Shown here: positions 556 through 36,700 of the stretch, one piece after another
Layout: the number at the start of each line of letters is the position of its first letter
Position numbering within the stretch: the stretch's first letter is position 1
DNA from: a virus
Direction: 5' to 3' (one strand)
DNA: 64,000 nucleotides
Virus record (IMG/VR): IMGVR_UViG_3300031962_000003
Coordinates: 4,223 to 68,222 of that record
The notes under the pieces: model-generated
What the model was told of the DNA's origin: nothing
Seen by the model: only the letters and a program-made list of their open reading frames with translations
Databases searched by the model: none
Program-made: the position numbers and the translations under genes

Positions 556-1215
556 ATGCTCCGGGATCCGGTCGCCTACGCGCACGCGATCGCCTCCGCC
601 TTCGCGGCGGACCTGGCGGAGTCTCCGACCCTCACCGACGTCATCGCCGAGCGCCGGGTCACCCAGGACGGCTTCCGGTCGATCATCCTCAAGGACCTCC
701 AGCGGTCGATTACAGGGGAGTCCGGACCGAACCTCTTCCCGCACATGCGGGCGTTCGTCAAGAGCCTGATCGACGCGAACGTGGCCGCGAAGAACGCCGG
801 TGTTTCCGGCCTCGGCGCGGCCGCTCCCGAAGGAGCGTTCGGGATGTCGGCGTCGATGACCGGCGGGATCACTTCGCTCGTCGGAGCGGTCACCGGGGTC
901 GTCTCGGCGGTCTGGGGCGCGAAGATCCAGGCCGGCGCAATAAAGAACCTCGGGAAGGTCCAGCTCCAGGAGGCCCAGCTCGCCGAGCGCTCCCAGGAGA
1001 TCGCGCTCCAGCGGGCCCAGATCGAGAATGCGACCGCGGTCGGGATCCCCGGCGGGGCTCCGGGCACGGGTCCTTCGGGTGGGGTGATCGCGCTCGGCCC
1101 GGTCGCGATCCCGGCGGCGGTCGAGATCGGCGGGACGTCCGTTCCGACCGCGACACTCGCGCTCGCGGCCCTTGCGGTGATGGGCGGCGGCTGGTACGCT
1201 TTCCACGGGAGATGA
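556..1215 (+). CDS. putative virion membrane protein (SGLG motif, coiled coil, C-terminal TM)
   Basis: GVSGLGAAAP motif, Q/E-rich helix, C-terminal TLALAALAVMGGGWYAFHGR; tightly packed with neighbours. Confidence 0.6.
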   Translation: MLRDPVAYAHAIASAFAADLAESPTLTDVIAERRVTQDGFRSIILKDLQRSITGESGPNLFPHMRAFVKSLIDANVAAKNAGVSGLGAAAPEGAFGMSASMTGGITSLVGAVTGVVSAVWGAKIQAGAIKNLGKVQLQEAQLAERSQEIALQRAQIENATAVGIPGGAPGTGPSGGVIALGPVAIPAAVEIGGTSVPTATLALAALAVMGGGWYAFHGR

Positions 1216-1218
1216 CCG

Positions 1219-1776
1219 ATGCGACACCACGCGATCGTCTACAGGGACACGTTCCGGACGCTCGTCGATCGTGGTGTCCCCATGGGACGCGCCCGGCACA
1301 TACTCAACCGGGCCTTCGTCCGGGTCCGCCGGCGTCACGCCGGCATGGGCGACGAGACGACCGGGGACACCTCGGCGGACCCGGCCGGACAGTCCTGGCT
1401 GGACCGGACGACGGCGATCATCGCCGAGTACAAGGACCCGACGTACAGCAAGGCCGATCTTCACCTCGAGGCGCAGAACGCCATGCAGGGGATCAGCGCC
1501 CTACTCTCGAACCGCTTCAGCCAGCTGAGCTCGACGATGGTCCAGTCGCTCTACTCGGCGGACGATATCCTGAACAAGATCCAGGTCGGCACGCTCTCGG
1601 CGACCTTCGAGTCGCCCTGGTCCTCCGGCGCGACGGAGTTCGTGCAGACGCTGAAGCAGGAGGTCGTTGCCGGCGGGAAGGCCCTCGCGAACCCGCTCAG
1701 CGTCGTACCCTGGTGGGCCTGGCCGCTCGGAGGTCTCGTCGGTCTGGCCGCGGCGAAGTCCCTTCTGAAATTCTAG
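1219..1776 (+). CDS. putative virion membrane protein (leader + AGMG motif, C-terminal TM)
   Basis: LVDRGVPMGRARHILNRA...HAGMGD; C-terminal VVPWWAWPLGGLVGLAAAK. Confidence 0.6.
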   Translation: MRHHAIVYRDTFRTLVDRGVPMGRARHILNRAFVRVRRRHAGMGDETTGDTSADPAGQSWLDRTTAIIAEYKDPTYSKADLHLEAQNAMQGISALLSNRFSQLSSTMVQSLYSADDILNKIQVGTLSATFESPWSSGATEFVQTLKQEVVAGGKALANPLSVVPWWAWPLGGLVGLAAAKSLLKF

Positions 1777-1790
1777 AGGAGAGAGAGTCG

Positions 1791-3080
1791 ATGGAGTCGA
1801 TCGCAGACCACCTCCGGGATGTCCCGGAGATCGCCGTCCGGCTGTACCTCGGCGCGAAGGGCATCAAGGACCAGCAGTCCGGCTGGGACATCGAGTTCGA
1901 GGGCCGCGTGATCCCGATCTCGTCGGAGGTCATGATCCAGGCGACCAAGGTCGCTCGGGTCCTGCAGATCCGGAACCGGCCGTCCGGCTCCGCCTCCGAC
2001 ATCCTCGAGCTCCGGCACGACGCCGAGGATATCTTCATCGAGGATATCATGGGCGAGCGGAAGGTCCCACGGATCCTGTTCGTTCCCGCCGGCGACATGG
2101 CCTCGGCGTACTACCGGGCGATGCTCCCGGCCGACACGATGATGGAGCGTGGCCTGGCGGTCTCGCACTTCACGTCCCGCCTGGACATCTACAAGGCGAC
2201 CCGCTACCAGATTCTCTGGATCCAGCTGGTCACGGCACCGATCCTGCTCGATATCGTCCGGCAGGCGAAGTCCTCCGGCGTCCGGATTGTCTACGATATC
2301 GACGATCGATTCGACGCGCTTCCGGTGGCGAACCCTTCCTCCTGGGTCTACAACAAGGAGAAGATCGCGGAGGTCTGGTCGATGATCGAGCTGGCGGATC
2401 TCGTCACGACCAGCACTCAGGACCTGGCGGACCACGTCCGCGGCCGCGCGAAGGTCGTGAAGGTCCTCCCAAATCTCGTCTCGGCATCGATCCTGCCGAA
2501 GCGGAACGAGCCGACCGGAGACGTCTTCCGGATCCTCTGGGCCGGCAGCCCAACGCACGCCCGGGACCTCGCGGTCGCCTCGCCGGCGATTGCTCGGGTC
2601 CTCGCCCGGCACGCCGGGAAGGTCCGCTTCACGCTCTTCGGGGAGTCTCTCCCGAAGGACCTCTCCGAGGTCTTCCAGTACATCGACCAGATGCGCTTCG
2701 TCGACTTCCCGGAGTACAGCGAGACGCTCGCCCGGGTCGGCGCGGACGTCGCGATCGCGCCGCTCGAGGACACGCCGTTCAACGCCTCGAAGTCCGCCGT
2801 GAAGTTCCTCGAGTACTCGGCCTGCGGGTACCCGTCGCTTCTCTCTTCTGTCGGAGAGTATAAAGAACTCCCACCGGAGTCCGGACGTGTCTTTGTTCCG
2901 GACGACTTCTGGGAGCAGGCCCTCGAGGAGGCCCTGAACATGCCTCCCGACGACCTCCAGAGGAGAGGGAAGCTGTCCCGGAAGTGGACGATCGAAAACC
3001 GCTGCCTGGTCCGGACGAACGCCCGCCAGTGGGCGGAGACCGCCCGGGACCTGCTCGCCGAGTCCGTCCCGAGCGCCTGA
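1791..3080 (+). CDS. GT-B fold glycosyltransferase (GT4-like)
   Basis: ATG 1791 after GAGGAG; motifs YYRAMLP, VYDIDD, ILWAGSPTH, DVAIAPLEDTPFNASKSAVKFLEY. Confidence 0.85.
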   Translation: MESIADHLRDVPEIAVRLYLGAKGIKDQQSGWDIEFEGRVIPISSEVMIQATKVARVLQIRNRPSGSASDILELRHDAEDIFIEDIMGERKVPRILFVPAGDMASAYYRAMLPADTMMERGLAVSHFTSRLDIYKATRYQILWIQLVTAPILLDIVRQAKSSGVRIVYDIDDRFDALPVANPSSWVYNKEKIAEVWSMIELADLVTTSTQDLADHVRGRAKVVKVLPNLVSASILPKRNEPTGDVFRILWAGSPTHARDLAVASPAIARVLARHAGKVRFTLFGESLPKDLSEVFQYIDQMRFVDFPEYSETLARVGADVAIAPLEDTPFNASKSAVKFLEYSACGYPSLLSSVGEYKELPPESGRVFVPDDFWEQALEEALNMPPDDLQRRGKLSRKWTIENRCLVRTNARQWAETARDLLAESVPSA

Positions 3081-7983: not shown

Positions 7984-8316
7984 CTAGTCCCCCTCCCCGT
8001 CGTCCGGCGGATTCGCGACGGCGGTCACCTCGTCCTGGGCCCTGTTGATCTCGATCCAGCGGACCCGACGATCGCCGCCGGCCGTCAGCTCGTAGAGGTA
8101 CGTCCTGCCGGCGAGCTCACGTCGGACAAGCCCATTCTGTCGGGCTCTCGAGAGGATCGTCCAGATGGTCCCCTCGTGGACGCTCTCCGACCTGGGCCCC
8201 ATCGCCTCCAGAACCCCTGCCACCGACAGCGGCCCTTTCTTGAGCGTCAGCAGGACGCCCCGGGACAGCCCGGTCAGTTTCCGGTACGACGACTTCGACT
8301 TCCGTACGCGTGCCAT
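7984..8316 (-). CDS. winged-helix DNA-binding protein (BlaI/PadR-like)
   Basis: GPLSVAGV...TIWTILSR...GLVRR...YELTAGG. Confidence 0.7.
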   Translation of the reverse strand: MARVRKSKSSYRKLTGLSRGVLLTLKKGPLSVAGVLEAMGPRSESVHEGTIWTILSRARQNGLVRRELAGRTYLYELTAGGDRRVRWIEINRAQDEVTAVANPPDDGEGD

Positions 8317-8650
8317 GGTTCGCTCCTCTCTGGTGACTGGCCCGCCCCTTGGCGAGCATATCCTTGACGTTCTCCAGCTGCGTCCCCGGCTGAATGTGCT
8401 CGAGGACGTTCACGCAGCGGCGGTTGTCGCACCCGTGCAGGAGGACCTTCCCGCGCGGGACCGGACCGAACAGGATCCGATACGCGACGATGTGGGCCCG
8501 CTGGACCCGGCCGTCGAGCCAGAAAGCCCAAAATCCGCCATCCCATGGTTCCGCCTTCCAGGTCCGGACAGACGCCGTCCAGATCCAGCAGCCAGTCGCC
8601 TGGTCGATCTGAACCTTGGACCAGAAGCGTCTTAAGTCACTCTTCCGCAC
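8117..8650 (-). CDS. HNH endonuclease (HNH_3-like)
   Basis: RFWSKV...GCWIW...RAHIVAY...LHGCDNRRCVN...GTQLENVKD; GTG 8650 with SD. Confidence 0.75.
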   Translation of the reverse strand: MRKSDLRRFWSKVQIDQATGCWIWTASVRTWKAEPWDGGFWAFWLDGRVQRAHIVAYRILFGPVPRGKVLLHGCDNRRCVNVLEHIQPGTQLENVKDMLAKGRASHQRGANHGTRTEVEVVVPETDRAVPGRPADAQERAAVGGRGSGGDGAQVGERPRGDHLDDPLESPTEWACPT

Positions 8651-8770
8651 GTTTACCCTCTGTTCGCCTCGTGGACGGTCCACCAGGGCCGCCCGCGAGG
8701 AGGGCCGGAGCGAAGTTGCTCCGGCCCGGATAGAGAGGGAATACACTCCGGAGAGCCTCCCTCCTTTGTG

Positions 8771-11016: not shown

Positions 11017-11769
11017 CTAGTTGCTGGACAGCGCGATCCCGCAGGCCGTGTCCATGAGCCCGTGAAGCGCCTGGGTCGCGACAGGGCGCTGGAAGAGCGA
11101 GCTGCCTTTCAGCGTCTCGGTGAAGGCGTTGAAGAGCCTCCAGACGTTCCGGCTCTTGGCGAACTCCGGGTGGCTGGGCGCGCGCCACTCCGCGAGGACC
11201 CGGGGGATCTGGGTGACCGGGACGATCCGCTGATCGAACGCCTGGACGACCAGGTCGTGCGCCTGCGCGGCCGTGAGCTCCTGGCCCTTGTACGTCGAGA
11301 TCCGACGGTCCTGGCTCCGGCGGGCGTCGCCGAGCTGCCCGATCGCGCTGCTGATCAGGGTCGGCAGGTCCCGGTCGACGTGCCGGGTGTGCTTCCGATC
11401 GATCCGGATGTCGCTGGAGAAGGACAGGTTCGAGCAGACGTGGACGCCGGCCCCGACCGCCAGGCCCGCCACGATCGACTTGTCGTGGCTGTTCCGGAGC
11501 CCGATCACCAGGGAGTAGTCCTCGTCGACCCGGCGCAGGTCCATCACCTGCAGGAGGCCGAAGTACCGCTCGCCCTCACGGGACAGGCAGTGAGCCTCGT
11601 TCACGACCTCCAGGCCGGCGCGCCGCAGGGTCGCGTCCACCTGGGAGAGCAGCCGCCCGTGCGCGATCGGGTACCAGCGGCCGTCGGCCGCCGGCGTCTT
11701 GACCGCGTCGACGAGCTCGCGCGTGACCTTGGGATCTCCGCCACCGATGTACAGGTCCAGCTTCTGCAT
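11017..11769 (-). CDS. DUF932-family protein
   Basis: PIAH, YFGLL, IGLRNSHDKS, VCSNL, RKHT, WRLFNAFTE; SD GGAG. Confidence 0.8.
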   Translation of the reverse strand: MQKLDLYIGGGDPKVTRELVDAVKTPAADGRWYPIAHGRLLSQVDATLRRAGLEVVNEAHCLSREGERYFGLLQVMDLRRVDEDYSLVIGLRNSHDKSIVAGLAVGAGVHVCSNLSFSSDIRIDRKHTRHVDRDLPTLISSAIGQLGDARRSQDRRISTYKGQELTAAQAHDLVVQAFDQRIVPVTQIPRVLAEWRAPSHPEFAKSRNVWRLFNAFTETLKGSSLFQRPVATQALHGLMDTACGIALSSN

Positions 11770-11808
11770 AGCAATCTCCTTCCGTGAGGCACTCGCCTCA
11801 TCTACCAG

Positions 11809-11838
11809 AGTATATAACCACGGTACTGTGGGTGTCAA
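11809..11838 (-). promoter_or_regulatory. sigma70-type promoter
   Basis: TTGACA-N18-TATACT on the - strand upstream of the DUF932 gene. Confidence 0.7.
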
Positions 11839-11854
11839 GTAGAAAACGGAATTC

Positions 11855-11878
11855 TGCACAGAATGGGGATTCTGTGCC
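11855..11878. repeat. 24-bp 9-6-9 site (motif 1)
   Basis: tGCACAGAA-tgggga-TTCTGTGCC. Confidence 0.8.
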
Positions 11879-11896
11879 ACTGGGAGATGGGTATTT

Positions 11897-12343
11897 CTAC
11901 CTGGAGGGGTGCTTTGGTGGCGCTCCGAAGTAGCCCTTGTAGGCCTTGGCGTATGCCCTGGCGGCTTCCTCTTCCGTCTCGAAGATCCCGAGCGTTAGGC
12001 GAGCTGTCCACCTTTCACCGAGACGTCCAACGCCTCGATACCTCGAGGCCGCATTCCGGTGCTTCCGTCCATTCCTGGTATTGACCGAGCGACTGGTTGG
12101 CGTGATGTTCTTCCTCTGGTTGTTCAGGCCATCCCCGTCCTCGTGGTCGACCATCCCGACTCCAGTGGTGAGTCCGAGAATGAACCGGTGGAGACGGGTC
12201 CACCGTCCGTTGACTCGACCTTTCACGTAGATCAGGCCGTTTGGCCTTGGATCCGGGAACCAGCTATACTTCGAGACGCGCTCGAAGTCCTCGTCGTCGA
12301 CGAGCGCCGACAGGCCTTCCTTTCCGACCGGCACACGTTTCAT
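11897..12343 (-). CDS. HNH endonuclease with AP2 domain
   Basis: ALVDDEDF...LHRFI...VDHEDGDGLNNQRKN; SRYRGV...LGIFETEEEAARAY. Confidence 0.85.
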   Translation of the reverse strand: MKRVPVGKEGLSALVDDEDFERVSKYSWFPDPRPNGLIYVKGRVNGRWTRLHRFILGLTTGVGMVDHEDGDGLNNQRKNITPTSRSVNTRNGRKHRNAASRYRGVGRLGERWTARLTLGIFETEEEAARAYAKAYKGYFGAPPKHPSR

Positions 12344-12462
12344 ACGTCCTCTAAAACCTCACTAGAGGCCTCTTTCCTCTCCAAGACCCGTGGTCCGGAG
12401 GCCTTTGGCGGGCCCCCAGAACGATCAGACGCTCCAGGTCCGACCTCCAGGACCTCCGCCCG

Positions 12463-12504
12463 TTAAAAGGCCGCGGGGCCGGCATCCCTGGCGGCCCCGC
12501 GGCC
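12463..12504 (-). terminator. rho-independent terminator
   Basis: 13-bp GC stem 12469-12481/12492-12504 followed by TTTTAA on the - strand. Confidence 0.7.
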
Positions 12505-12524
12505 CCACACGGAGGATCATGAGC

Positions 12525-13520
12525 CTAGAGAGGGTAGAACTGGCCGTCGAGTGGGTTCCGACGCATGACAGCCTGAGGAGCGTCGACGTTGCCGAAGAGG
12601 CCTCCAGGGACGGCCGGCTGCAGGTACTGGACCGCCCCTGGCTGGCGATCCCACCAGGGCTCTTGCCAGACCTGCCCGTCAGGTCCTACGTTATCGTCGC
12701 CGTCGTCGAAGTCCTGATCGCCGAACCACACGGGATCAGGCTGCTGCTCTTCAGCCCGGTCGAGCTCAACCTGGACCTCTTCAGCGATCCGCTCCCGAAG
12801 ATCCTGGGCGATCCCGTCGCCGGCGGGCTGGATGTAGTCCGCCAGGCCGCCCTGGGCGTTTCCGTGGCCGTAGTACGCCATATGCGAGCGCCGGCGGCGG
12901 TGGGACGACTGGAAGCTATCCAGGGCTTCCCGGTAGTTGAGCGTCGATCGAGCGATCGCGAGCTCGACCACGCCGGCCTCGACCGTTTCGAGGCTTTGGA
13001 TCTCTCGTTCCAGCTCGATTGGATCCGGAGCGTCGAACCGTACCGTTGGGTGGAGGTGACGGTGGTCTTTCGGTATGAACTGGTAGGTGTACGGGTTCGT
13101 GACATTCTCCGTCGACCGAGGCCTCTTGCCCGGGCCGTGGTACCACGGCCCGTGGGGCGACCGGTTCCCGATCCGCCGGAACTCCGCCTCCTCGCCCTCG
13201 AGCATCGCCTTCAGGACGACGACGTTGTCGGTCCCGGGGACGCCGAAGTGCGGGCCGATCGAGATGCACCAGCTGGCGACCTCGACGCCGTCCTCGAGTT
13301 CTCCGACGCGGCCGCGCCGACGGATCAGGAAGATCGTCCCGGTCAGGTTCCCGCGCGCCGGCATGTCGCCGGTGTGACAGTAGATGGCGAATCGGTACGG
13401 GTCACAGACCGACTCGAGGAGCTCCATGGCGCGACGTTCCGGCACGTCGACCTGGCCGACAGCAAGCGCAGTCCAGTAGCTGTACTGGGCGCGATCGCCC
13501 CAGCCGTTGCCACGGCGCAC
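12525..13520 (-). CDS. hypothetical protein, partner of GG-ending protein (Cys-containing N-domain)
   Basis: ERRAMELL...WCI...VPGTDNVVVLKAMLEGEEAEFRRIGN; 3 nt from the upstream gene. Confidence 0.6.
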   Translation of the reverse strand: MRRGNGWGDRAQYSYWTALAVGQVDVPERRAMELLESVCDPYRFAIYCHTGDMPARGNLTGTIFLIRRRGRVGELEDGVEVASWCISIGPHFGVPGTDNVVVLKAMLEGEEAEFRRIGNRSPHGPWYHGPGKRPRSTENVTNPYTYQFIPKDHRHLHPTVRFDAPDPIELEREIQSLETVEAGVVELAIARSTLNYREALDSFQSSHRRRRSHMAYYGHGNAQGGLADYIQPAGDGIAQDLRERIAEEVQVELDRAEEQQPDPVWFGDQDFDDGDDNVGPDGQVWQEPWWDRQPGAVQYLQPAVPGGLFGNVDAPQAVMRRNPLDGQFYPL

Positions 13521-13523
13521 GGT

Positions 13524-13985
13524 TTAGCCGCCGCCGACCTTCGAGGAAGTCGTGACGGACTTCTTCTCGTCGGCCTTGAACTCGCCGGGCTCCCGGAGGA
13601 TCTTCCAGGTCCCGTCTTTCTGGGCCTCGAAGACCATCTTGCCGTCCTTGATTTCGCCGTTGATCATCTCCTCGCACAGGAGCTTGACCTTCTTCGGCTC
13701 GCCCTCGAGCAGGACCTCGCCCTTCTTCCCCTGGAAGATGCCGGGCAGCTTCGTGACCGCGTCCGCGGCCTTCCCGTCGGCGTCGACGTTGAAGGCCTTG
13801 AAGCCGAAGAGCTGCGAGGTCTGGATCAAGCTCTTGATCAGGCCGCGCTCGACGACGCCGGTCTCCGCCCACTTGACGCGGACCGAGTCCTTCGTGAAGG
13901 ACAGCTCGGTGTGGCCGTTGTGGCCCGTGACGTTCAGCTGGACGTCGACGGCCGGCTCGGCCGCGTGATTCTGGATCGTTTCCAT
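13524..13985 (-). CDS. protein ending VGGG (ubiquitin-like C-terminus candidate)
   Basis: SD GAAAGGA; C-terminal SSKVGGG-stop. Confidence 0.65.
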   Translation of the reverse strand: METIQNHAAEPAVDVQLNVTGHNGHTELSFTKDSVRVKWAETGVVERGLIKSLIQTSQLFGFKAFNVDADGKAADAVTKLPGIFQGKKGEVLLEGEPKKVKLLCEEMINGEIKDGKMVFEAQKDGTWKILREPGEFKADEKKSVTTSSKVGGG

Positions 13986-14009
13986 GGCAGTTTCCTTTCT
14001 CTGAGTACT

Positions 14010-14387
14010 CTACCCGCCCAGTATATCATCGTTTTGAGGGGCCGGAACAGCTCCAGGAACCTCGACAGGATCAGCGACGACCCCACCATCCCCTAACCCT
14101 CCGGGCGCAGGGGGGAGCATGTACGGCGCTGGGCCGGCGGCGTACGGATTCGGGCGAGGTCTCGGCGCGGCCGTCTTCGGGTAGACCGTGTCGACCGAGA
14201 CCAGGTCGAGGATGGACTTCATTCGCATCCGGATCCGGACCCGGTCGTTCAGGTCCTTCTGGGTGATGAACTGCTGCATCAGCTCCTTCATGATCTCGGG
14301 AGTGCCGTCGACCATCTCCTGGACCTTGCTGCCGATGAGCGCCTGGGCCGCCGGCGCGGTCGCCGCTGATGCCTTTTCTTCCGTCAC
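14010..14387 (-). CDS. hypothetical protein, Pro-rich tail ending LGG
   Basis: GTGA overlap; ends DDILGG-stop. Confidence 0.55.
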   Translation of the reverse strand: MTEEKASAATAPAAQALIGSKVQEMVDGTPEIMKELMQQFITQKDLNDRVRIRMRMKSILDLVSVDTVYPKTAAPRPRPNPYAAGPAPYMLPPAPGGLGDGGVVADPVEVPGAVPAPQNDDILGG

Positions 14388-14653
14388 GGTAATCTCCCCC
14401 TGGTAAGCTGTCCGATCATATCCGTCACCACGGTCATTATCTTCGAGTCCTTCGTCAGCGTGATCTGGTCGTCGAAGTACCGATTGAAGAGGTCCCGGGC
14501 GATGTCGACCCGGCGCTCGGGGTCCGCCTCCATGAACTCGCCCTTCTGACCTTCCGAGAGGATCTCGTCGGCGACCTTGAGGCAACGCTTGTAGATCCCG
14601 GCGTAGCCGTCCAGGATCTTCGCGACTTTGTCCTCTGTCGTCTTCTCAGCCAC
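14384..14653 (-). CDS. hypothetical protein
   Basis: SD GGAGG before GTG. Confidence 0.55.
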   Translation of the reverse strand: MAEKTTEDKVAKILDGYAGIYKRCLKVADEILSEGQKGEFMEADPERRVDIARDLFNRYFDDQITLTKDSKIMTVVTDMIGQLTRGRLP

Positions 14654-14661
14654 GATTCCTC

Positions 14662-15105
14662 CTAGTCTTCTCTGATACTGGCCCAGCGCTCGAGGGAGTC
14701 TCGGAGCTCCATCGGGAGATCCGGGTTCGTTATCTTCATGGCCTGTTCGAGCGACATCCCCTGAGTCACGACCAGGAGCGCCGCGGTCACCGCCATCGAT
14801 CGATTCTGGCCGGCCGCGCAGTGGACTAGGACACGGTCAACGGCCCGGTAGAAGCCGATCGCCGCCTCGAAGCAGGCGGGCCCCGTCGGGATCGACTCCT
14901 CGATCGGGAGCATGAGCCTCGGGATCGTCGGATCGTACGGGACGGCGATCTCCCAGGCCGTGTTGATGACGCCGCCGATCAGATGCTTCTTCCAGCGACC
15001 GTCCATGCCGCAGAGGAACCTGGCGGCGGCCTGGTCGCCCTGCAGGATCTTCCCTTGTGCGTACCTCTTCACCTTGACGGGTGGCTCGGCCATGCTAGCC
15101 CTCAC
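14662..15105 (-). CDS. dual-specificity/tyrosine phosphatase family protein
   Basis: CX5R loop VLVHCAAGQNRS. Confidence 0.85.
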   Translation of the reverse strand: MRASMAEPPVKVKRYAQGKILQGDQAAARFLCGMDGRWKKHLIGGVINTAWEIAVPYDPTIPRLMLPIEESIPTGPACFEAAIGFYRAVDRVLVHCAAGQNRSMAVTAALLVVTQGMSLEQAMKITNPDLPMELRDSLERWASIRED

Positions 15106-16732: not shown

Positions 16733-16925
16733 ATGAGGTAAGCTCACGCGGGGAGACGGAGGAAGGCGCAGGGATCTGCGCCCTCTTCTGTTTCCCCCTC
16801 TCTCCAGGGCTAGGCCGCCTTTGAAAGGGAATGAGCTGCCCGCCTGTTGCGGACGGTAAAAACCTCGAAGCGGTGGCCTGGCTCCAATTGGGGAGCTGTA
16901 AGCAGCTCTCCAGTTGGAGCCAAAA
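16733..16925 (+). ncRNA. putative pseudoknotted ncRNA (~190 nt)
   Basis: Long hairpins 16750-16797 and 16880-16921 whose G-U pairs favour the + strand; long-range pairings; own promoter. Confidence 0.6.
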
Positions 16926-16927: not shown

Positions 16928-17401
16928 TCAGGGGAAGTTCAGGCACGAAAACCCTCCTTGTACTTTCATTGCCACCTTGTCATAGGCGCGCGCGGCCTTA
17001 ACTTCTGAGTCAAAGACACCGAGAGACCGTGTCTTCCCGTCGATCTTTATGTTCGCACGCCAACCGCTTCTGTCAGCCGCGTAGTACACACCCTTGAATC
17101 GTTTCCCTGTGGAAGGCCTACGGTTCCTTCTGTTTTGCGTCCCCGTGCAGATCCTCAGGTTACGACGCCTGTTGTCGAGCCCGTCATGGTTCCTATGGTC
17201 AACTTCCTTCCCCTTTGGAGATCCAGCGATGAGTCGATGCATGAAGATTGTCCCACGCGCCCCGGACTCGAACCTAACGTTTGCCTGCGCATACCAGGTC
17301 CCGTTTTTACTCCTCTTCGCGAACCACTTGAACGGGCAGACGATGTAGTAATCGACCTTGTTGATGGTTGCGTACTTTCCAAGATTCAGGCTAATTCTCA
17401 C
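16928..17401 (-). CDS. HNH endonuclease with AP2 domain
   Basis: MHRLI...VDHRNHDGLDNRRRNLR; FKGV...WRANI...LGVFDSEVKAARAYD. Confidence 0.85.
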   Translation of the reverse strand: MRISLNLGKYATINKVDYYIVCPFKWFAKRSKNGTWYAQANVRFESGARGTIFMHRLIAGSPKGKEVDHRNHDGLDNRRRNLRICTGTQNRRNRRPSTGKRFKGVYYAADRSGWRANIKIDGKTRSLGVFDSEVKAARAYDKVAMKVQGGFSCLNFP

Positions 17402-17592
17402 AGCCCCGTCACCCGCTTCCAGATCTCGACAAGCTTCTTCTCCTGGTCCACGGACAGTGCAAGGTCGAAGGCAAGCAACCCGTTCATGTCGTTCAGGAAT
17501 TTGTCTTCCCACTCCGTGATCTCGGCGCGATCCTCGGTGACCTCCCGGTAGATCACCTCGATCATGTTCGCCAGGTCCTTCGCGTCACTCAC
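17398..17592 (-). CDS. hypothetical protein
   Basis: ITEWEDKFL...LSVDQEKKL, overlap chain. Confidence 0.55.
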   Translation of the reverse strand: MSDAKDLANMIEVIYREVTEDRAEITEWEDKFLNDMNGLLAFDLALSVDQEKKLVEIWKRVTGL

Positions 17593-19937: not shown

Positions 19938-20609
19938 TCAATATACCTTCAGGCCGGCGTGCTCCCGCACGTAGAATCCGTAATCCTGCCTCTTCCCGTC
20001 GATGTAGGCCAGCTTCACTCCGGCCTGGCCGACGCAATAGTTGAAGTAGACCTGGTCGCGCTTCGAGCCGGCGGAGATCTTGGACCACCAGAGCTCGTTG
20101 AAGCTCCGGATCACGTCGCTGTGCCTCCGGAGCAGGATCCCGGTCTCCCCGAGCCCGGCGGCGCGCGGGTGGCCGGCCCCGAGCAGGATCTTCAGCTCCT
20201 TCCCCATGACCGCCGGATCCTCCTTCCCGCAGGCGACGGCGGCGCGCGCGCCCTCGTAGACGCAGTCGATCGTCTGGTGCCGGAAGACCGCGACGTCGCT
20301 GTCCGACAGGTACCGCTCGACGAGCTCGCGGAGGTCGACGTCGATCGCGTCGACCGAGCCGTCGAGCCAGACGACGAGCCGGTAGTCCTTGACCGGCCCG
20401 ATGTGCGACATGACCTTGTGGAGCCGGGCTGTCCTGGTAGTGTCTTGCGCCTGGAAAAAAGATGGAATGGTGATCACCTTCGTCCGTCGAGGTGCTCTCC
20501 CAAGTGGGAAGTCAGTCAACAGGAACAGGTCGACGTCGTCCCCAAAGTCCGGCTCGACGTACGGGTCGTAGCGCCCGAAAATCCCCGTGTAGACGGCGAT
20601 CTTTTCCAT
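19938..20609 (-). CDS. DUF616/TOD1-MUCI70-like glycosyltransferase
   Basis: VYTGIFGRYD, ARLHK, VWLDGS, FRH..DCVYE, ETGILLRRH, WW...RDQ. Confidence 0.75.
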   Translation of the reverse strand: MEKIAVYTGIFGRYDPYVEPDFGDDVDLFLLTDFPLGRAPRRTKVITIPSFFQAQDTTRTARLHKVMSHIGPVKDYRLVVWLDGSVDAIDVDLRELVERYLSDSDVAVFRHQTIDCVYEGARAAVACGKEDPAVMGKELKILLGAGHPRAAGLGETGILLRRHSDVIRSFNELWWSKISAGSKRDQVYFNYCVGQAGVKLAYIDGKRQDYGFYVREHAGLKVY

Positions 20610-20613: not shown

Positions 20614-21165
20614 CTACCCTGGCCCGGCCGGCTCTACGTGCGAGAGGTCCTCGATGGAGAGCAGCTTACCCACCGCTCGCCGCTGAGCCTTCAGAAACAC
20701 GCCCGGATGGCTGTACACGTCCGGCTCGAGCGCCAGGATGTCCATGTCGGCGAAGATCGCCCGGAAGTGGTCGCCCGTGAAGCGCCAGTGGTCCTCCGGG
20801 AAGGCATGGTACGGGAACCCCGGGGACCTGGTCGTCACGACCAGGAGGCCACCTGACTTCGTGACCGACTTCATCTGGAAGACTGCGGTCCTCCAGTCTT
20901 TGACGTGCTCAAGCATCTCCGTCGAGATGACCACGTCGAAGCGCCTGGTCCCGAACCTCACATCTAGGTTGTCGACGTTCACGACGCGGTCGACGCCCGG
21001 GCCCGGCTGGGAGTCGACGCCGATGTACGAGGCGGGGCACATCGGCTCGACAATCGACCTGGGCGTCCCATTCACGTCGTAGCTGCCGACCTCGAGCACG
21101 GACTTCCCGGAGATCTCCTCCGGTGTCAGGGTACGTCCCAGGAAGTCAAGAACGGACTGGTGCAT
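20614..21165 (-). CDS. class I SAM-dependent methyltransferase
   Basis: VLEVGSYDVNG, GPGVD, FDVVISTEMLEH, YHAFPEDHWRF. Confidence 0.85.
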   Translation of the reverse strand: MHQSVLDFLGRTLTPEEISGKSVLEVGSYDVNGTPRSIVEPMCPASYIGVDSQPGPGVDRVVNVDNLDVRFGTRRFDVVISTEMLEHVKDWRTAVFQMKSVTKSGGLLVVTTRSPGFPYHAFPEDHWRFTGDHFRAIFADMDILALEPDVYSHPGVFLKAQRRAVGKLLSIEDLSHVEPAGPG

Positions 21166-26571: not shown

Positions 26572-26880
26572 TCAGCCCTTGACGATCCGGCAGTAGATCT
26601 CGCGCTCCTGCATGACGAGGTAGGTGTCACCCTCGATCGTCACCTCGGTGCCGGCGTTGTGCTTGAACGCGACGCGGTCGGAGGTCTTGACGGTCATCGG
26701 GTGCCGCCGCGTCCCGTCCGCGCTTCCGGCGACGAACAGGCCGGGCCCGACCGCCACGACGTCGCCCTCGTCGGCGATCGAGACGCTGTCCGGGAGCAGG
26801 ATCCCGCCCTCGGTCTTCCGGGAGCCGGATCGCTTAACGATCACGTAGTCATGTAGGGGTGCCGGGACGAGCTTCGCCAT
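26572..26880 (-). CDS. groS: co-chaperonin GroES
   Basis: PLHDYVIVK...KTEGGILLP...GDVVAVGPG...VKTSDRV...GTEV...YLVMQEREI. Confidence 0.9.
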   Translation of the reverse strand: MAKLVPAPLHDYVIVKRSGSRKTEGGILLPDSVSIADEGDVVAVGPGLFVAGSADGTRRHPMTVKTSDRVAFKHNAGTEVTIEGDTYLVMQEREIYCRIVKG

Positions 26881-27226
26881 CGTTCTTCCTCCTTCTGGTG
26901 ACCTTCGGTCTCCTACGACGTACCGCCTCGGCCCGGAGACGCCGGGCCTCGGCACGAGCTTTCTTCTTCGTGAACGGGCCGCCGGCGACGAGCCAGCGGT
27001 GCGTCTTGGCGTCCATCATCAGGATCCCCCAGCCGTTCTCCTTGCACTTGTGCCCCTCGTGCGGGCACATAAACGGAAAGAGGACGACGATCTCGCCGCG
27101 GATGATCTTCCGGCCGGCCTTCAGCTTCCGGAAGCAGGCCAGGTCGATCTCGCCGATCCCGCCATTTTCCGGCAGGCCGCGCTCGCAGGCGATGCAAAAC
27201 GACTCGGCGAACTTCTCTTCGGTCAC
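26849..27226 (-). CDS. hypothetical protein with CxxC
   Basis: GTGA overlap with the recombinase stop. Confidence 0.45.
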   Translation of the reverse strand: MTEEKFAESFCIACERGLPENGGIGEIDLACFRKLKAGRKIIRGEIVVLFPFMCPHEGHKCKENGWGILMMDAKTHRWLVAGGPFTKKKARAEARRLRAEAVRRRRPKVTRRRKNDGEARPGTPT

Positions 27227-29565: not shown

Positions 29566-30357
29566 TTAGATCTTCGAGTTCGGAGTTACCCATTCCCCTT
29601 TTTCGTTCCGCGTGAAGTCCTGGAAGACGTTCGGCCAGCGGGCCTTCGAGATGTGGGCGACCTCGTCGAAGACGAGTCGGATCTCCACCTCGGCCGACTC
29701 CGCGGTCCGGAGCTCGACGAGGTGCCGAAGCGCCCGGAAGTTCATCGACATCCCGATCGTCGTCGCCAGGCCGATCGGCGCGAGCCGGCGCATCGCCGAG
29801 GTGATTTTCTTCTTGGTCTCGAAGTTCGTCCCGGGCTCGTCGAGGTGGAAGTGATCGGCCATCCTCAGCTGGATCTCCTCGAGGCTTCTGAAAGTCGTCT
29901 CAAAGAGGTCGACCAGGCCGGCCTCGTGCTCGATCTCCTGCGGGAGCCAGAGGCCGAGGTCCGTCAGACGGACGTACCGGAGCGACTCCTGGCTGAAGGC
30001 AGTCCCAACCCGGTGCCGGACGAGCTCGTGCGTGAAGACGCGCGAGACGTCGGCGAAGATCCAGTTCGTCTGGGAGTGCTCGAGGACCGAGCCGTGCCGG
30101 GACTTGATGATGTTCGCGAGGTAAACGTCGTTCCCCTCGCGGACCTTCTGGACGTTGGGATTCAGGCCGGGCTTGAAGGCCCTGTAGCAGACGCGTCCCA
30201 TCACTTCGACCAGCGTCTCGGCGTCGGACTGCTTTCCGTCCCGGAGGTTATCCTCCCCCCACTCCGGAGCGCCGACGTGCTCGAGGTACTGACGAAGACT
30301 TGAGTAGTCGAAGTACGTTTCGCCGACCAGGAACACTTTAGGTTGGACACGTCTCAT
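29566..30357 (-). CDS. thyX: flavin-dependent thymidylate synthase
   Basis: HGSVLEH, SRVFTHELVRHR, FSQESLRY, NFRALRH, AEVEIR. Confidence 0.95.
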   Translation of the reverse strand: MRRVQPKVFLVGETYFDYSSLRQYLEHVGAPEWGEDNLRDGKQSDAETLVEVMGRVCYRAFKPGLNPNVQKVREGNDVYLANIIKSRHGSVLEHSQTNWIFADVSRVFTHELVRHRVGTAFSQESLRYVRLTDLGLWLPQEIEHEAGLVDLFETTFRSLEEIQLRMADHFHLDEPGTNFETKKKITSAMRRLAPIGLATTIGMSMNFRALRHLVELRTAESAEVEIRLVFDEVAHISKARWPNVFQDFTRNEKGEWVTPNSKI

Positions 30358-35329: not shown

Positions 35330-35967
35330 GTTCCCTGCGGAAAGTGCTTCAAATAATTGTAGTAGGCCAGGGTCTCCCGGAGGAAGACGAAGGAGTCCTT
35401 GTTTGCCTGGTACAGGTTGTTGAAAAAATGGAAGTCCTCACCGCCATACTTCGTGAAGTCGTACCGATGAGGGCCGATGAGTCGGATATCGACCGCAAAC
35501 ATCGTGTTGTCGACCTTCCCGAACTGCATCAGGTTCGGGAGGGCGACGAGGTTTCCGATCGCGTCCCAGCGCTGCTGGCCAAAGACGAAGGCGCGGGCGG
35601 CAGGATTCGCCGCGCGGGCCACCTCGAGCCTCACGAAGAAGTCCGGGTGGACGATATTGTCGTCGTCGAGGAGGTGGTAGTAACAGTGAACCCCGTTAGC
35701 GGCCAGGACGTCGATCCCCATGTTTTTCTGGGCGATCCCGAAGATGCAGCGGCCGCCCGGGTACATGGTCCTCCAGATAGCGAGCGACGGCGGACGTGCC
35801 TGGAGCTGGCTGTCGACCTCCGGTGGGAGCTTCCCGGGCTCGTCGATGACCAGGACCCATACGACGTCTGAGCCCTTCGACTTCTCGAGCGCCTGGATGA
35901 GCGACCGGTGGATCGCCGGAAGATTCACGGCCCTCGAGACGGCCGTCACGATCCCAAAAGTGGTCAT
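35326..35967 (-). CDS. GT-A fold glycosyltransferase
   Basis: IVTAVSR..NL, QKNMGID, LLDDDN, VDN, EDFHF. Confidence 0.75.
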   Translation of the reverse strand: MTTFGIVTAVSRAVNLPAIHRSLIQALEKSKGSDVVWVLVIDEPGKLPPEVDSQLQARPPSLAIWRTMYPGGRCIFGIAQKNMGIDVLAANGVHCYYHLLDDDNIVHPDFFVRLEVARAANPAARAFVFGQQRWDAIGNLVALPNLMQFGKVDNTMFAVDIRLIGPHRYDFTKYGGEDFHFFNNLYQANKDSFVFLRETLAYYNYLKHFPQGT

Positions 35968-36692
35968 TGCCCCATCCTCCCGTATTTCGGATGCGTTCGG
36001 ATCGCGGCCCGTTCCGCGTCCGTGAGTTTGTGCCAGACCGGCCAGCGGCCCTCCCGGACCTCCCGCCAGACCGCGAAGGAGGTGTCGTACTCCAGCTTCT
36101 GGTCGAGCTCCTTCCGTTCGAGCGCGGCGGCCGTCGAGGCGGATCCGCGGTGCCAGACCGGGCAGGCGTGGACCCGGACGGTCGACAGGTTGTAGGACTC
36201 CTGGGCCCGCCGGATGATGTCGCTGTCCTGCATGTAGAAGCGCATCCGCTCGTCGACGCCCTTCAGGAGCTCCCAGGTGGCCCTGGAGGTCATCGCGATG
36301 AAGAACTGGACCTCGGCGGTCGTCAGGCGGGCGTCCGCGGCCCGCTCCCGGGCAAGCTCCTCCATCCGGGACCGGTCCGGCATCGGCTCGGCCGTCGGCG
36401 ACGAGCCGAACGGGTCCGGCGTCGCGATCCCGACGCCGTCCTTGAGCGCGCCGGCGAGCCGCTCGTCCCAGCCCGGCGAGAGGGCGATGTCCGGATTCAT
36501 GATGACGACGTAGTCGCCTTTCCCGCCGGCGGCCAGGTCGTTCCAGAGCGCCGAGAGCGTCCGCGTGTTCCCGAAGTTGTCGAAGTAGTGGACGGTCCGC
36601 GGCATCGAGGTCATCGACTCGATGTCCTTCCGGAGCCGCGGCAGGAACATCTCGGACCGGTAGCCGACCAGGACGATGTCAACGCTCTTCAT
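35964..36692 (-). CDS. GT2-family glycosyltransferase
   Basis: DIVLVGY, WN, VIMNPDI, GVDERMRFYMQDSD, VWHRGSAS. Confidence 0.8.
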   Translation of the reverse strand: MKSVDIVLVGYRSEMFLPRLRKDIESMTSMPRTVHYFDNFGNTRTLSALWNDLAAGGKGDYVVIMNPDIALSPGWDERLAGALKDGVGIATPDPFGSSPTAEPMPDRSRMEELARERAADARLTTAEVQFFIAMTSRATWELLKGVDERMRFYMQDSDIIRRAQESYNLSTVRVHACPVWHRGSASTAAALERKELDQKLEYDTSFAVWREVREGRWPVWHKLTDAERAAIRTHPKYGRMGQ

Positions 36693-36700
36693 GGCAGTCC

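What the first reader, a model, noticed from the sequence alone, without database searches (positions are those of the whole stretch)
12525..14387. Gly-Gly-terminated proteins next to a Cys-containing partner: candidate viral ubiquitin-like conjugation module
Seen: 13524-13985 ends SSKVGGG-stop and looks internally duplicated (GFKAFNVDADGK versus GKMVFEAQKDGT). The gene upstream ends DILGG-stop. The gene 3 nt downstream has an N-domain with WCI...P.TD...LKAMLE.EE.EF, and a terminator follows. Known: ubiquitin, ThiS/MoaD and bacterial Ubl modifiers end in GG and use a catalytic Cys. My unverified recollection is that this pair recurs in phages as hypothetical proteins. Inference: a modifier plus conjugating enzyme that could tag host or viral proteins or decoy host Ubl-based defence. 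I recognised no E1/ThiF gene in the window.
Basis: partly seen in the sequence, partly recalled or inferred. Interest (0 to 1): 0.7.

Follow-up and report, generated by a model that had tools for sequence, protein, structure and literature searches.

The report
Phage Gly-Gly-tailed protein with E2-like partner
An uncultivated phage carries a conserved gene cassette in which a small protein that always ends in Gly-Gly sits next to a protein that seems to have the fold of ubiquitin-conjugating enzymes and an invariant cysteine, so phages may run or hijack a ubiquitin-like tagging reaction, although no activating enzyme is encoded.

Summary
The sequence features are real. I call the four minus-strand genes Z (14384-14653), A (14010-14387), B (13524-13985) and C (12525-13520). 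They recur in the same order in all 5 loci examined.

- **B:** its family has 56 sequences. 52 end in GG, 3 in AG and 1 in GG plus three residues. In a 52-sequence alignment of 27% mean identity, the last Gly is one of only two invariant columns.
- **C:** the N-domain keeps Trp-Cys-Ile in 21 of 21 sequences. Its confident model (pLDDT 84.8) matches E2/UBC, UEV and RWD structures in the first 15 rows of an exhaustive fold search, but weakly (Z 4.5 or less).
- **A:** its terminal GG is chance, seen in 1 of 5 homologues.
- **B's fold:** the model is poor (pLDDT 59.8) and gave no beta-grasp match. The proposed internal duplication is not supported.
- **Missing parts:** neither of the two near-complete phage genomes has a ThiF-type E1 or a JAB peptidase.
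- **Annotation:** neither B nor C matches any Pfam, PHROG, PADLOC or PDB sequence family.

Best reading (0.4): an E1-less modifier-like protein paired with a UBC-fold cysteine protein, dependent on a host E1. The main rival (0.3) is a non-covalent docking tail. Interest 0.62.

The parts
14384..14653 (-). Gene Z: 89-aa helical protein, first gene of the conserved cassette
   Evidence: Homologous ORFs lie immediately upstream of A in all 5 loci (alignment). No Pfam or PHROG family was found apart from a sub-threshold DUF596 hit at E 0.026. Its stop overlaps A's start.
14010..14387 (-). Gene A: 125-aa protein with a conserved N-terminal helical segment and a Pro/Ala/Gly-rich tail; ends DILGG
   Evidence: tblastn hits in 4 of 4 other loci, always directly upstream of B. 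The terminal GG is present in 1 of 5 homologues. No Pfam, PHROG or PADLOC family.
13524..13985 (-). Gene B: 153-aa protein with an alpha/beta domain (about residues 17-131) and a flexible Lys/Glu-rich linker, ending KVGGG
   Evidence: GC3 is 0.97. The profile search found 55 proteins at E<=1e-3. Of 56 small family members, 52 end GG, 3 end AG and 1 ends GG+CFK. The model has pLDDT 59.8, with the tail 132-153 below 50.
13527..13562 (-). Conserved C-terminal tail motif of B (last 12 residues, K-x-V-T/V-S/T-x-x-x-V/P-x-G-G)
   Evidence: In alignment A5 (52 sequences, 27% mean column identity) the last Gly is invariant and the penultimate Gly is at least 90% conserved. The endings are listed.
12525..13520 (-). 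Gene C: 331-aa protein with a conserved N-domain and a variable, probably disordered C-terminal part
   Evidence: 19 proteins at E<=0.01, counting itself. Only the first ~125 residues are conserved and the C-terminal parts differ between subgroups. It starts 3 nt after B's stop.
13146..13520 (-). C N-domain (residues 1-125): predicted three helices, a four-strand meander, a loop, then two helices; resembles the UBC/RWD/UEV fold
   Evidence: AlphaFold2 model with pLDDT 84.8 and pTM 0.76. In the VIA-align search of 48,161 chains, the first 15 rows and 27 of the 50 shown are E2/UBC, UEV, RWD or FANCL entries by title, with best Z 4.5. The ESM Atlas structural neighbours are unnamed clusters, one of them 98% viral.
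13266..13268 (-). Codon of Cys85 of C (W84-C85-I86), at the end of the fourth strand
   Evidence: W84, C85 and I86 are invariant in 21 of 21 aligned sequences, including the diverged jumbo-phage copy in which His91 is lost. Strand 79-85 is in the model.
12464..12506 (-). Terminator-like hairpin and U-tract ending the cassette
   Evidence: RNA fold of 12455-12524(-): a 15-bp stem, -47.6 kcal/mol, z -3.49, followed by UUUU. The consensus scan did not flag it.

Best explanation
Z-A-B-C is a conserved accessory cassette of uncultivated tailed phages. Its working pair is B and C.

- **B** is a small folded protein. It carries a long flexible tail whose free C-terminal Gly-Gly is the functional group.
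- **C** presents an invariant cysteine on a domain with the fold of ubiquitin-conjugating (E2/UBC-like) proteins.

The most likely mechanism has three steps:
1. B's terminal glycine is activated by an adenylating E1-type enzyme that the phage does not encode. This would be a host enzyme, either a housekeeping MoeB/ThiF-type enzyme or the E1 of a defence system.
2. B is then passed as a thioester to Cys85 of C.
3. From there it is transferred to host or phage targets. The variable C-terminal part of C would choose those targets.

**Shown here:** the cassette, the conservation of the tail and of the Cys, the fold resemblance, and the absence of a ThiF-type E1 and of a Prok-JAB peptidase.

**Inferred:** activation, the thioester, the transfer and the targets.
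For: 1. **The very C-terminus of B is under selection.**
   - Of 56 family members, 52 end GG and 3 end AG. One ends GG followed by CFK, which looks like a precursor.
   - The last Gly is one of only two invariant columns in a 52-sequence alignment of 27% mean identity.
   - A conserved terminal Gly or Ala on a protein that is not beta-grasp is what marks cGAS/CD-NTases that Cap2 conjugates (PMC10097602, passages read).
2. **C's N-domain looks like the E2 fold.**
   - The model is confident (pLDDT 84.8).
   - An exhaustive comparison with 48,161 chains put E2/UBC, UEV, RWD and FANCL entries in the first 15 rows and in 27 of the 50 rows shown.
   - Examples are Ubc9 4y1l_C (Z 4.3, rmsd 3.3 over 84 residues), a chain of a bacterial E1-E2-Ubl complex, 8tyz_C (Z 3.3), and BubB, 9eav_D (Z 2.6).
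3. **The Cys is conserved.** Cys85 lies at the end of the fourth strand, before the loop that leads to the next helix. It is invariant in 21 of 21 sequences, with near-invariant His91 and invariant Asp98 nearby.
4. **The genes are linked.**
   - A, B and C are found in the same order in 4 of 4 other loci. Z-A-B-C are the only ORFs shared by all 5 loci.
   - B and C are adjacent in 4 of 5 loci, and 3 nt apart in the window.
   - Three further contig lengths (43,732, 77,771 and 102,477) are shared between the hit lists for B and C.
5. **C has a variable part.** A conserved catalytic-looking domain joined to a variable C-terminal part is the usual layout for an enzyme with changeable targets.
6. 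**Small bacterial E2s exist.** Minimal bacterial E2s that lack the last two UBC helices and the usual motifs are documented (PMC11601596, passages read).
Against: - **No activating or deconjugating enzyme.** No ThiF-family E1 is found in the 68-kb phage (94% complete) or in the 236-kb phage (90% complete). No Prok-JAB peptidase is found in either. All characterised ubiquitin-like conjugation needs ATP-dependent activation.
- **B shows no beta-grasp fold.** The best fold matches (Z 5.3 or less) are ACT-like or ferredoxin-like domains, kinase N-lobes and glycosidase accessory domains, and none is a ubiquitin-like protein. The model is poor (pLDDT 59.8).
- **The fold match for C is weak.** All Z scores are 4.5 or less, below the level the tool calls distinctive. 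Foldseek found nothing at E<=0.001 in the PDB.
- **C matches no E2 sequence family.** It has no Pfam match, which covers the UQ_con and Prok-E2 models, and no PDB sequence match.
- **The Cys is in a different place.** It sits right at the strand end in a 10-residue loop. By my recollection, canonical E2s carry it further along a much longer loop after an HPN motif. Whether the two positions coincide in space was not tested.
Confidence: 0.4

Rival explanations
1. B's tail is a non-covalent docking motif. Its conserved C-terminal motif, ending in a free Gly-Gly carboxylate, plugs into a pocket of C or of a host protein, in the way other flexible C-terminal tips recruit partners. C is a non-catalytic UBC/RWD/UEV-type adaptor whose Cys is structural or redox-active. 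The cassette redirects or blocks a host protein without any covalent chemistry.
For: - RWD and UEV entries, which by my recollection are non-catalytic UBC-fold binders, score as high as true E2s. The RWD entry 2daw has Z 4.5 and the GCN2 RWD entries have Z 4.0.
- The loop after strand 4 is short (residues 86-95). By my recollection this is more like RWD than E2.
- No E1, JAB or other Ubl enzyme is present in either near-complete phage.
- B's tail is predicted to be disordered and is joined by a Lys/Glu-rich linker of variable length.
Against: - Requiring the motif to sit at the exact C-terminus, with Gly or Ala tolerated only at the penultimate place, is typical of chemistry at the carboxylate. 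It is not unique to it.
- An invariant Trp-Cys-Ile with nearby conserved His and Asp looks catalytic.
Confidence: 0.3
2. The pair is a counter-defence decoy or sink. B imitates the C-terminal tail of the substrate of a host ubiquitin-like defence system (the CD-NTase of type II CBASS, or BilA or BubA). It is loaded by the defence E1, which keeps that enzyme busy. C, an E2 look-alike, takes up or blocks the charged intermediate, so that the defence never conjugates its real substrate.
For: - The cassette lies among accessory genes of the leftward block and moves between unrelated phage backgrounds, from a 16.5-kb contig to a 236-kb contig.
- cGAS conjugated by Cap2 is likewise not beta-grasp, and it has a conserved terminal Gly or Ala (PMC10097602).
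- The phages encode no E1 of their own. A decoy of a host enzyme would not need one.
Against: - No host is known, so the presence of CBASS, Bil or Bub in the host could not be checked.
- B and C match no PADLOC defence-protein model.
- My searches found no paper describing such a phage decoy.
- This is a special case of the best explanation, with a different purpose.
Confidence: 0.12
3. B is a sulfur carrier. Like ThiS, MoaD or TtuB, it is thiocarboxylated on its terminal Gly-Gly, with C's Cys acting as a persulfide relay. It would supply sulfur for a phage-directed modification of nucleic acid or of a cofactor.
For: - By my recollection, endings of the VGGG and xGG kind are typical of ThiS and MoaD proteins.
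- The phage carries many modification genes: several glycosyltransferases, methyltransferases and ThyX.
Against: - No ThiF/MoeB gene is present.
- No sulfurtransferase, ThiG/ThiH, MoaE or TtuA-type gene was seen among the 50 window ORFs scanned against Pfam.
- B gives no beta-grasp match.
- By my recollection, the UBC fold is not known as a persulfide carrier.
Confidence: 0.05
4. There is no functional link. B and C are merely neighbouring conserved phage genes, and the GG ending and the Cys have unrelated structural roles.
For: - Neighbouring genes alone are weak evidence.
- In the jumbo-phage locus, four small ORFs separate B from C.
Against: - Z-A-B-C are the only genes shared by all 5 loci, whose flanks otherwise differ.
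- B and C abut in 4 of 5 loci.
- The conservation of the last residue across the family cannot be explained by folding alone.
Confidence: 0.05

Closest known systems
Minimal bacterial E2 proteins of antiphage ubiquitination-like operons (Cap2 E2 domain, BilB, BubB)
   Same: - A small UBC-like domain without the eukaryotic signature motifs.
- An invariant nucleophile accompanied by conserved His and Asp. BubB has Ser with His and Asp (PMC11601596). C has Cys85 with His91 and Asp98.
- Encoded next to a protein whose exposed C-terminal Gly is the reactive end.
- A chain of a bacterial E1-E2-Ubl complex (8tyz_C, Z 3.3) and BubB (9eav_D, Z 2.6) appear among the fold matches.
   Different: - It is encoded by phages, not by bacterial defence islands.
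- There is no E1 and no peptidase in the cassette or in the genome.
- There is no sequence-profile relationship.
- It has three N-terminal helices instead of one, and a much shorter active-site loop (the comparison rests on my recollection of E2 structures).
Type II CBASS cGAS/CD-NTase conjugation by Cap2
   Same: The conjugated protein is not a beta-grasp protein. It is recognised through a C-terminal tail whose last residue is conserved as Gly or Ala (PMC10097602). The B family shows the same pattern: the terminal Gly is invariant in the alignment of 52 and the penultimate residue is Gly or Ala.
   Different: - B is a 153-aa protein with no nucleotidyltransferase domain.
- No Cap2 or Cap3 is nearby.
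- The di-Gly in B is far more strictly kept than the penultimate residue of cGAS.
Ubiquitin-like beta-grasp modifiers and sulfur carriers (ubiquitin, ThiS, MoaD, SAMPs, TtuB, BilA)
   Same: - A mature protein ending in Gly-Gly.
- One family member carries a three-residue extension after GG, like a precursor.
- By my recollection, SAMP and TtuB show that conjugation can run on an E1 shared with housekeeping sulfur transfer.
   Different: - No beta-grasp match was found for B. The model looks more like a beta-alpha-beta-beta-alpha-beta sandwich.
- About 20 flexible residues separate the fold from the GG, against about 4-6 in ubiquitin by my recollection.
- There is no cognate E1.
RWD and UEV domains (non-catalytic UBC-fold binding modules)
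   Same: These are the best-scoring structural neighbours: 2daw at Z 4.5, 7e2k and 2yz0 at Z 4.0, and the Vps23 UEV domain at Z 3.6. They share the alpha, four-strand, alpha-alpha order and a short loop after strand 4.
   Different: C has an invariant Cys at the strand-loop junction and a cluster of invariant polar residues. By my recollection, RWD and UEV domains lack a catalytic Cys.

Membership tests
Ubiquitin-like modifiers / sulfur carriers (beta-grasp Ubl: Ub, ThiS, MoaD, SAMP, BilA) | Exposed C-terminal Gly-Gly (or Gly) that is conserved across the family | tested here: met
   Of 56 B-family sequences, 52 end GG, 3 end AG and 1 ends GG+CFK. The terminal Gly is invariant in the 52-sequence alignment. 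For protein A the feature is not met: 1 of 5 homologues ends GG.
Ubiquitin-like modifiers / sulfur carriers (beta-grasp Ubl: Ub, ThiS, MoaD, SAMP, BilA) | Beta-grasp fold | tested here: inconclusive
   The model of B has pLDDT 59.8. Foldseek against the PDB found nothing at E<=0.001. VIA-align gave a best Z of 5.3 in the wide search and 4.8 in the second look, with no ubiquitin-like entry among the rows shown. Pfam gave no ThiS, ubiquitin or other hit for any of 52 members beyond two single stray hits.
Ubiquitin-like modifiers / sulfur carriers (beta-grasp Ubl: Ub, ThiS, MoaD, SAMP, BilA) | Cognate ThiF/MoeB/Uba-type adenylating E1 encoded with it | tested here: not met
   PF00899 found nothing in six frames of the 68,222-base record (94% complete) or of the 236,090-base record (90% complete). 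The control genomes rang 14 of 14. The contigs of L002-L004 are not held and were not searched.
Ubiquitin-like modifiers / sulfur carriers (beta-grasp Ubl: Ub, ThiS, MoaD, SAMP, BilA) | Covalent attachment through the terminal carboxylate | not testable with these tools
   This needs biochemistry or proteomics.
E2 ubiquitin-conjugating enzymes (UBC superfamily, including bacterial Cap2-E2, BilB, BubB) | UBC-like alpha/beta fold | tested here: inconclusive
   The model is confident (pLDDT 84.8). The first 15 rows, and 27 of the 50 rows shown, of the exhaustive VIA-align search are E2/UBC, UEV, RWD or FANCL entries by title. All have Z of 4.5 or less, and unrelated rows follow from Z 3.0. Foldseek against the PDB found nothing at E<=0.001. 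In the second look, Mms2/Ubc13 scored Z 2.7.
E2 ubiquitin-conjugating enzymes (UBC superfamily, including bacterial Cap2-E2, BilB, BubB) | Invariant nucleophile (Cys, or Ser in Bub) in the region between strand 4 and the following helix | tested here: met
   Cys85 is invariant in 21 of 21 sequences. It lies at the end of strand 79-85, before loop 86-95 and helix 96-109. Whether it coincides in space with the E2 active-site Cys was not tested, because no coordinates or residue-level superposition were available.
E2 ubiquitin-conjugating enzymes (UBC superfamily, including bacterial Cap2-E2, BilB, BubB) | Sequence-profile match to an E2 family (UQ_con, Prok-E2_A-E) or the HPN motif | tested here: not met
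   The window protein has no Pfam family at E<=0.1. None of the 21 members has one at E<=0.01, apart from one stray DUF7092 hit. The PDB profile search had a best E of 0.29. No HPN is visible in the conserved block; the loop reads ISIGPHFGVPGTD. The HPN motif itself is recalled.
Type II CBASS conjugated CD-NTases | CD-NTase nucleotidyltransferase domain, with Cap2 and Cap3 in the operon | tested here: not met
   B has no Pfam or PADLOC hit. No ThiF-type (Cap2) or JAB-type (Cap3) gene is in either phage.
Pup (prokaryotic ubiquitin-like protein) | Disordered protein of about 64 aa ending GGQ or GGE, with a PafA ligase (features recalled) | tested here: not met
   B-family proteins end GG with no Gln or Glu after it. 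They have a predicted folded domain. PafA was not searched for specifically.

The most novel reading that the evidence does not exclude
Phages carry their own stripped-down ubiquitin-like transfer module. It consists of a modifier that is not beta-grasp and is recognised only through a flexible Gly-Gly tail, and a new, minimal UBC-fold cysteine enzyme. Because it has no E1, it must parasitise a host E1. It would use this either to tag host or phage proteins during infection, or to drain ubiquitin-like antiphage defences (type II CBASS, Bil, Bub). If so, this would be, as far as my literature searches show, the first viral E2-like/modifier pair in prokaryotic viruses and a new class of counter-defence.
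Probability: 0.3. Interest if true: 0.85.

Novelty: new variant of a known kind. Interest (0 to 1): 0.62.

Why it matters
Ubiquitin-like conjugation in bacteria has so far been described as a host weapon against phages (type II CBASS, Bil, Bub). A conserved phage cassette with the two hallmarks of such chemistry would put the same chemistry on the viral side of the arms race. Those hallmarks are a strictly C-terminal Gly-Gly and a UBC-fold protein with an invariant Cys.

It would also raise a sharp, testable question, because the cassette has no activating enzyme: which host E1 charges the phage protein?

Even if the tail only docks non-covalently, B and C are two unannotated protein families with clear, mutable functional residues. 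They have at least 56 and 21 members, and no Pfam, PHROG, PADLOC or PDB relative. The fold of C would extend the UBC/RWD superfold to phage proteins.

Tried and rejected
**Complex prediction**
- I ran a complex prediction of C's N-domain (residues 1-130, alignment A4) with B (alignment A5). The result was 'no answer': scores 0.00 and 0.01 against a mark of 0.32, and the controls were not run. It counts neither for nor against binding.

**Looking for more loci**
- Four scans found no relative: IMG/VR with the C alignment (29 pattern matches); species-representative genomes with C (21 pattern matches) and with B (55); and a degenerate DNA pattern for a B subgroup motif in IMG/VR (0 matches).
- tblastn against 50,697 GenBank phage records found no match for the following queries:
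  - the window's B and C N-domain;
  - the jumbo-phage B and C;
  - two divergent B members.
- blastn of the region also found none.

**Fused forms**
- Longer proteins (581-2000 aa) carrying C's N-domain: none among 86 candidates. This is weak evidence.

**Family libraries and structure-based leads**
- Pfam, PHROGs and PADLOC gave nothing consistent for A, B, C and Z, nor for all members of the B and C alignments.
- PDB sequence profiles had best E values of 0.29 for C and 0.029 for B. The latter is a stretch of a SET-domain methyltransferase, which I treat as chance.
- ESM Atlas returned only unnamed clusters.
- BFVD returned two unnamed viral proteins (E 1.5e-7 and 6.7e-4) and an uncharacterised protein of Agrobacterium phage Atu_ph07 (E 0.023). 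I could not fetch their sequences to ask whether a GG-tailed neighbour exists there.

**Internal duplication of B**
- hhalign gave probability 1.3%, so I rejected it. The two halves may still be the two beta-alpha-beta units of a ferredoxin-like sandwich.

**Ideas considered and dropped**
- Phosphatase partner. The window has a dual-specificity phosphatase just upstream of Z. I guessed that one of the ORFs between B and C in the jumbo phage was a small phosphatase, but Pfam does not support that, and the other loci have none.
- Papain-like thiol peptidase for C. I considered this from the Cys, His and Asp residues. I dropped it because the Cys ends a beta strand and no peptidase appears among the fold matches.

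- Relatives of a virus record cannot be drawn, so no host could be inferred.
Full report
**What is in the sequence**

The window is 64,000 of the 68,222 bases of a linear virus record that CheckV rates 94% complete. Bases 8,000-48,600 are transcribed leftward. This block encodes:
- a D5-type primase-helicase, an AAA_24 ATPase and a DinG-like helicase;
- ThyX, an integrase and a Cpn10 co-chaperonin;
- several glycosyltransferases and methyltransferases;
- three HNH endonucleases.

Near the end of this block lie four tightly packed minus-strand genes:
- **Z**, 14384-14653, 89 aa.
- **A**, 14010-14387, 125 aa. Its GTG start overlaps Z's stop, and it ends DILGG.
- **B**, 13524-13985, 153 aa, ending KVGGG.
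- **C**, 12525-13520, 331 aa. Its GTG start is 3 nt after B's stop, and it contains SWCISIGPHFGVPGTDNVVVLKAMLEGEEAEFRRIGN.

A 15-bp G+C-rich hairpin followed by UUUU comes after C (-47.6 kcal/mol, z -3.49). The consensus scan missed it because it has only four U. B has a GC3 of 0.97, C 0.82 and A 0.78, as expected of real genes in this genome.

**Is it more than chance?**

Only A and B end in GG among 77 predicted genes, where 0.48 are expected. The real test is conservation, and the two proteins behave differently.

Evidence for B:
- A word-index search found 5 proteins, counting B itself.
- A profile search of 1.84 billion representatives found 55 proteins at E<=1e-3, of which 41 were at E<=1e-10.
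- I set aside four long proteins (512-3,253 aa) that match only in short repeated stretches. That leaves 56 sequences of 74-173 aa.
- Of these, 52 end GG, 3 end AG, and one ends GG followed by CFK.
- I then dropped four C-terminal fragments (74-88 aa). In the resulting 52-sequence alignment, mean column identity is 27%. The only invariant columns are Gly24 and the last Gly. The penultimate Gly and Glu46 are the only columns at 90% or more.
- A looser motif, K-x-V-(T/V)-(S/T)-x-x-x-(V/P)-x-G-G, precedes the end. It is joined to the body by a Lys/Glu-rich linker of variable length.

Evidence for A: its homologues in the four other loci end ILG, GQP, MRA and PRL. Its GG is an accident.

**Linkage**

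- Relatives of C were found in three metagenome contigs (L002-L004). A relative of B was found in one 236-kb IMG/VR contig (L001).
- tblastn places A, B and C in the same order in 4 of 4 of these loci.
- An all-against-all comparison of every ORF of 45 codons or more, in the four loci and in 16 kb of the window, shows that Z, A, B and C are the only genes shared by all five loci. The other clusters shared by all five (two, plus one shared by four) are antisense shadows of B and C.
- B and C abut in 4 of 5 loci. In the jumbo-phage locus, four small unannotated ORFs lie between them.
- Three more contigs probably carry both genes, because the contig lengths 43,732, 77,771 and 102,477 occur in both hit lists.
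- The cassette is absent from:
  - 50,697 GenBank phage records;
  - the species-representative genomes.

**Protein C**

Nineteen proteins, counting C itself, share only the first ~125 residues. The C-terminal parts fall into at least three unrelated types. When the locus copies are added, 21 of 21 sequences keep W84-C85-I86, P95, T97, D98, E108-G109, E111, F114 and G118-N119. His91 is lost only in the jumbo-phage copy.

The AlphaFold2 model of residues 1-140 is confident over residues 11-122 (mean pLDDT 84.8, pTM 0.76). It has:
- helices 15-20, 26-38 and 41-50;
- a four-strand meander 52-56, 63-67, 72-76 and 79-85, which ends at Cys85;
- a loop 86-95;
- helices 96-109 and 111-117.

Fold searches gave the following:
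- Foldseek found no PDB match at E<=0.001.
- The exhaustive VIA-align comparison with 48,161 chains found only 135 with Z>=2 and none with Z>=5. Even so, the first 15 rows are all RWD, UEV, E2/UBC or FANCL entries by title, as are 27 of the 50 rows shown.
- Examples from that list:

| Entry | What it is | Z |
|---|---|---|
| 2daw | RWD domain | 4.5 |
| 4y1l_C | Ubc9 (rmsd 3.3 over 84 residues) | 4.3 |
| 7e2k, 2yz0 | GCN2 RWD domain | 4.0 |
| 8tyz_C | chain of a bacterial E1-E2-Ubl complex | 3.3 |
| 9eav_D | BubB | 2.6 |

- By my recollection five more rows are UBC-fold proteins, which would make 32 of 50.
- The absolute scores are below what the tool regards as distinctive. I therefore treat the UBC/RWD-like fold as probable, not proven.

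No Pfam E2 family, PADLOC model or PDB sequence profile matches C. BFVD and the ESM Atlas show that the fold recurs in unnamed, mostly viral protein clusters.

**Protein B**

The model, made from six sequences, is poor (pLDDT 59.8). The tail 132-153 is below 50, and the Atlas's own model is no better. The predicted order of elements is three strands, a helix, two strands, a strand, a helix, then two strands.

The weak fold matches (Z of 5.3 or less) are ACT or ferredoxin-like domains, ribosomal protein S6, kinase N-lobes and glycosidase accessory domains. No ubiquitin-like entry appears among the rows shown. The N-half and the C-half are not demonstrably homologous (hhalign probability 1.3%, E 0.041). 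B is therefore not shown to be a beta-grasp protein, and it may be a ferredoxin-like sandwich with a long flexible GG tail.

**Missing parts**

- Six-frame searches found no ThiF-family E1 and no Prok-JAB peptidase in either the 68-kb phage or the 236-kb phage (90% complete). The controls rang in 14 of 14 and 9 of 14 genomes.
- B is single-copy in both phages.
- Pfam scans of 50 window ORFs showed no other adenylating enzyme. About 30 small ORFs were not scanned.
- No longer protein fuses C's N-domain to another domain (weak evidence).

**Mechanism**

A residue that must be the very last one, that tolerates only Gly and then Gly or Ala before it, and that sits on a flexible tail is the signature of chemistry at the carboxylate. 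The closest precedent is not ubiquitin itself but bacterial cGAS. That protein is not beta-grasp, its terminal Gly or Ala is conserved only where Cap2 is present, and it is thioester-linked and conjugated through that residue (PMC10097602; abstract seen in the listing, passages read). Minimal bacterial E2s that lack the last UBC helices and the canonical motifs, and even use Ser with His and Asp, are documented for Bub operons (PMC11601596; passages read).

Putting this together, I rank the readings as follows:
- **Best reading (0.4):** B is a modifier-like protein charged by a host E1 and handed to Cys85 of the UBC-fold protein C. The variable C-terminal part of C selects the targets.
- **Non-covalent docking (0.3):** B's tail is a docking motif, and C is an RWD/UEV-type adaptor.
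- **Decoy or sink (0.12):** the pair occupies or drains a host ubiquitin-like defence.
- **Sulfur carrier (0.05).**
- **No functional link (0.05).**

Activation, the thioester, the transfer and the targets are all inferred. A complex prediction gave no verdict and is not used as evidence (see Tried and rejected).

**Novelty**

My searches found no paper describing a phage-encoded GG-tailed protein paired with an E2-like protein. They were, on phage with ubiquitin-like and C-terminal glycine, phage-encoded with E2-like, and counter-defence with the Bil system, and on RWD or UBC fold in phages and prokaryotes. Only titles and abstracts of the listed papers were seen, apart from the two papers above. 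Supplementary tables were closed. The operon tables of the Bub and CBASS papers could in principle list phage-borne examples that I could not see.

The two families have no annotation in any library I searched. I rate this a new variant of a known kind of system, with interest 0.62. The evidence is entirely computational and one defining component, the E1, is absent. However, the conserved residues make the hypothesis directly testable.

Noticed in passing
window 16787-16894 (-); L002 6539-6616; L003 1246-1325: A conserved intergenic element of about 80-110 nt. A long imperfect hairpin (GCCAGGCC...GGCCTGGC) is followed by a purine-rich GGAGAGAGGGGGAAACAG stretch. The window copy has an extra hairpin inserted at the apex. 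In L002 the element lies immediately upstream of gene Z; in the window it lies about 2 kb upstream of the cassette. Of 16 predicted pairs, 2 have compensatory changes, but only 3 sequences were compared. Rfam has no match at E<=0.1. It could be a leader, a regulatory RNA or a promoter-proximal element.
   Followed up: partly
window 14662-15105 (-): A dual-specificity protein phosphatase (DSPc, E 1.3e-8; phrog_32716) is encoded directly upstream of gene Z. It is not conserved next to the cassette in the other loci.
   Followed up: partly
window 8117-8746, 11897-12343 and 16928-17512 (-): Three HNH endonuclease genes lie within 10 kb. Two of them are AP2-type paralogues that flank the cassette region (phrog_99, E 5e-24; HNH_3, E 1.1e-7), and one of these two has a counterpart downstream of C in L004. 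They look like mobile homing-endonuclease insertions.
   Followed up: no
window 26572-26955 (-): A phage-encoded Cpn10 (GroES-like) co-chaperonin (E 1.5e-19).
   Followed up: no
window 1212-3080 (+), 19938-20609, 35964-36734, 37297-39057 (-): At least four glycosyltransferase-like genes, one of which matches the 'GT4-conflict' family (E 8.6e-15). A methyltransferase (20614-21165) and ThyX (29566-30357) are also present. This could mean DNA or surface glycan modification by the phage.
   Followed up: no
window 11017-11880 (-): A DUF932-family protein (E 4.7e-6) is encoded two genes downstream of the cassette.
   Followed up: no
window 12390-14096 (+): A 568-codon open frame runs antisense across B and C (GC1 0.83, GC3 0.69). 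A simple GC3-based gene picker chose it over the real genes. Its 'conservation' in the other loci is a shadow of B and C. It is a trap for automatic annotation in this G+C-rich genome.
   Followed up: yes
L001 9352-10335 and 4385-5221: In the 236-kb phage contig the cassette is flanked by an RNA ligase (PF09414, E 3.6e-28) and by a P-loop ATPase of the AAA_23/ABC type. Neither is present next to the cassette in the other loci.
   Followed up: partly
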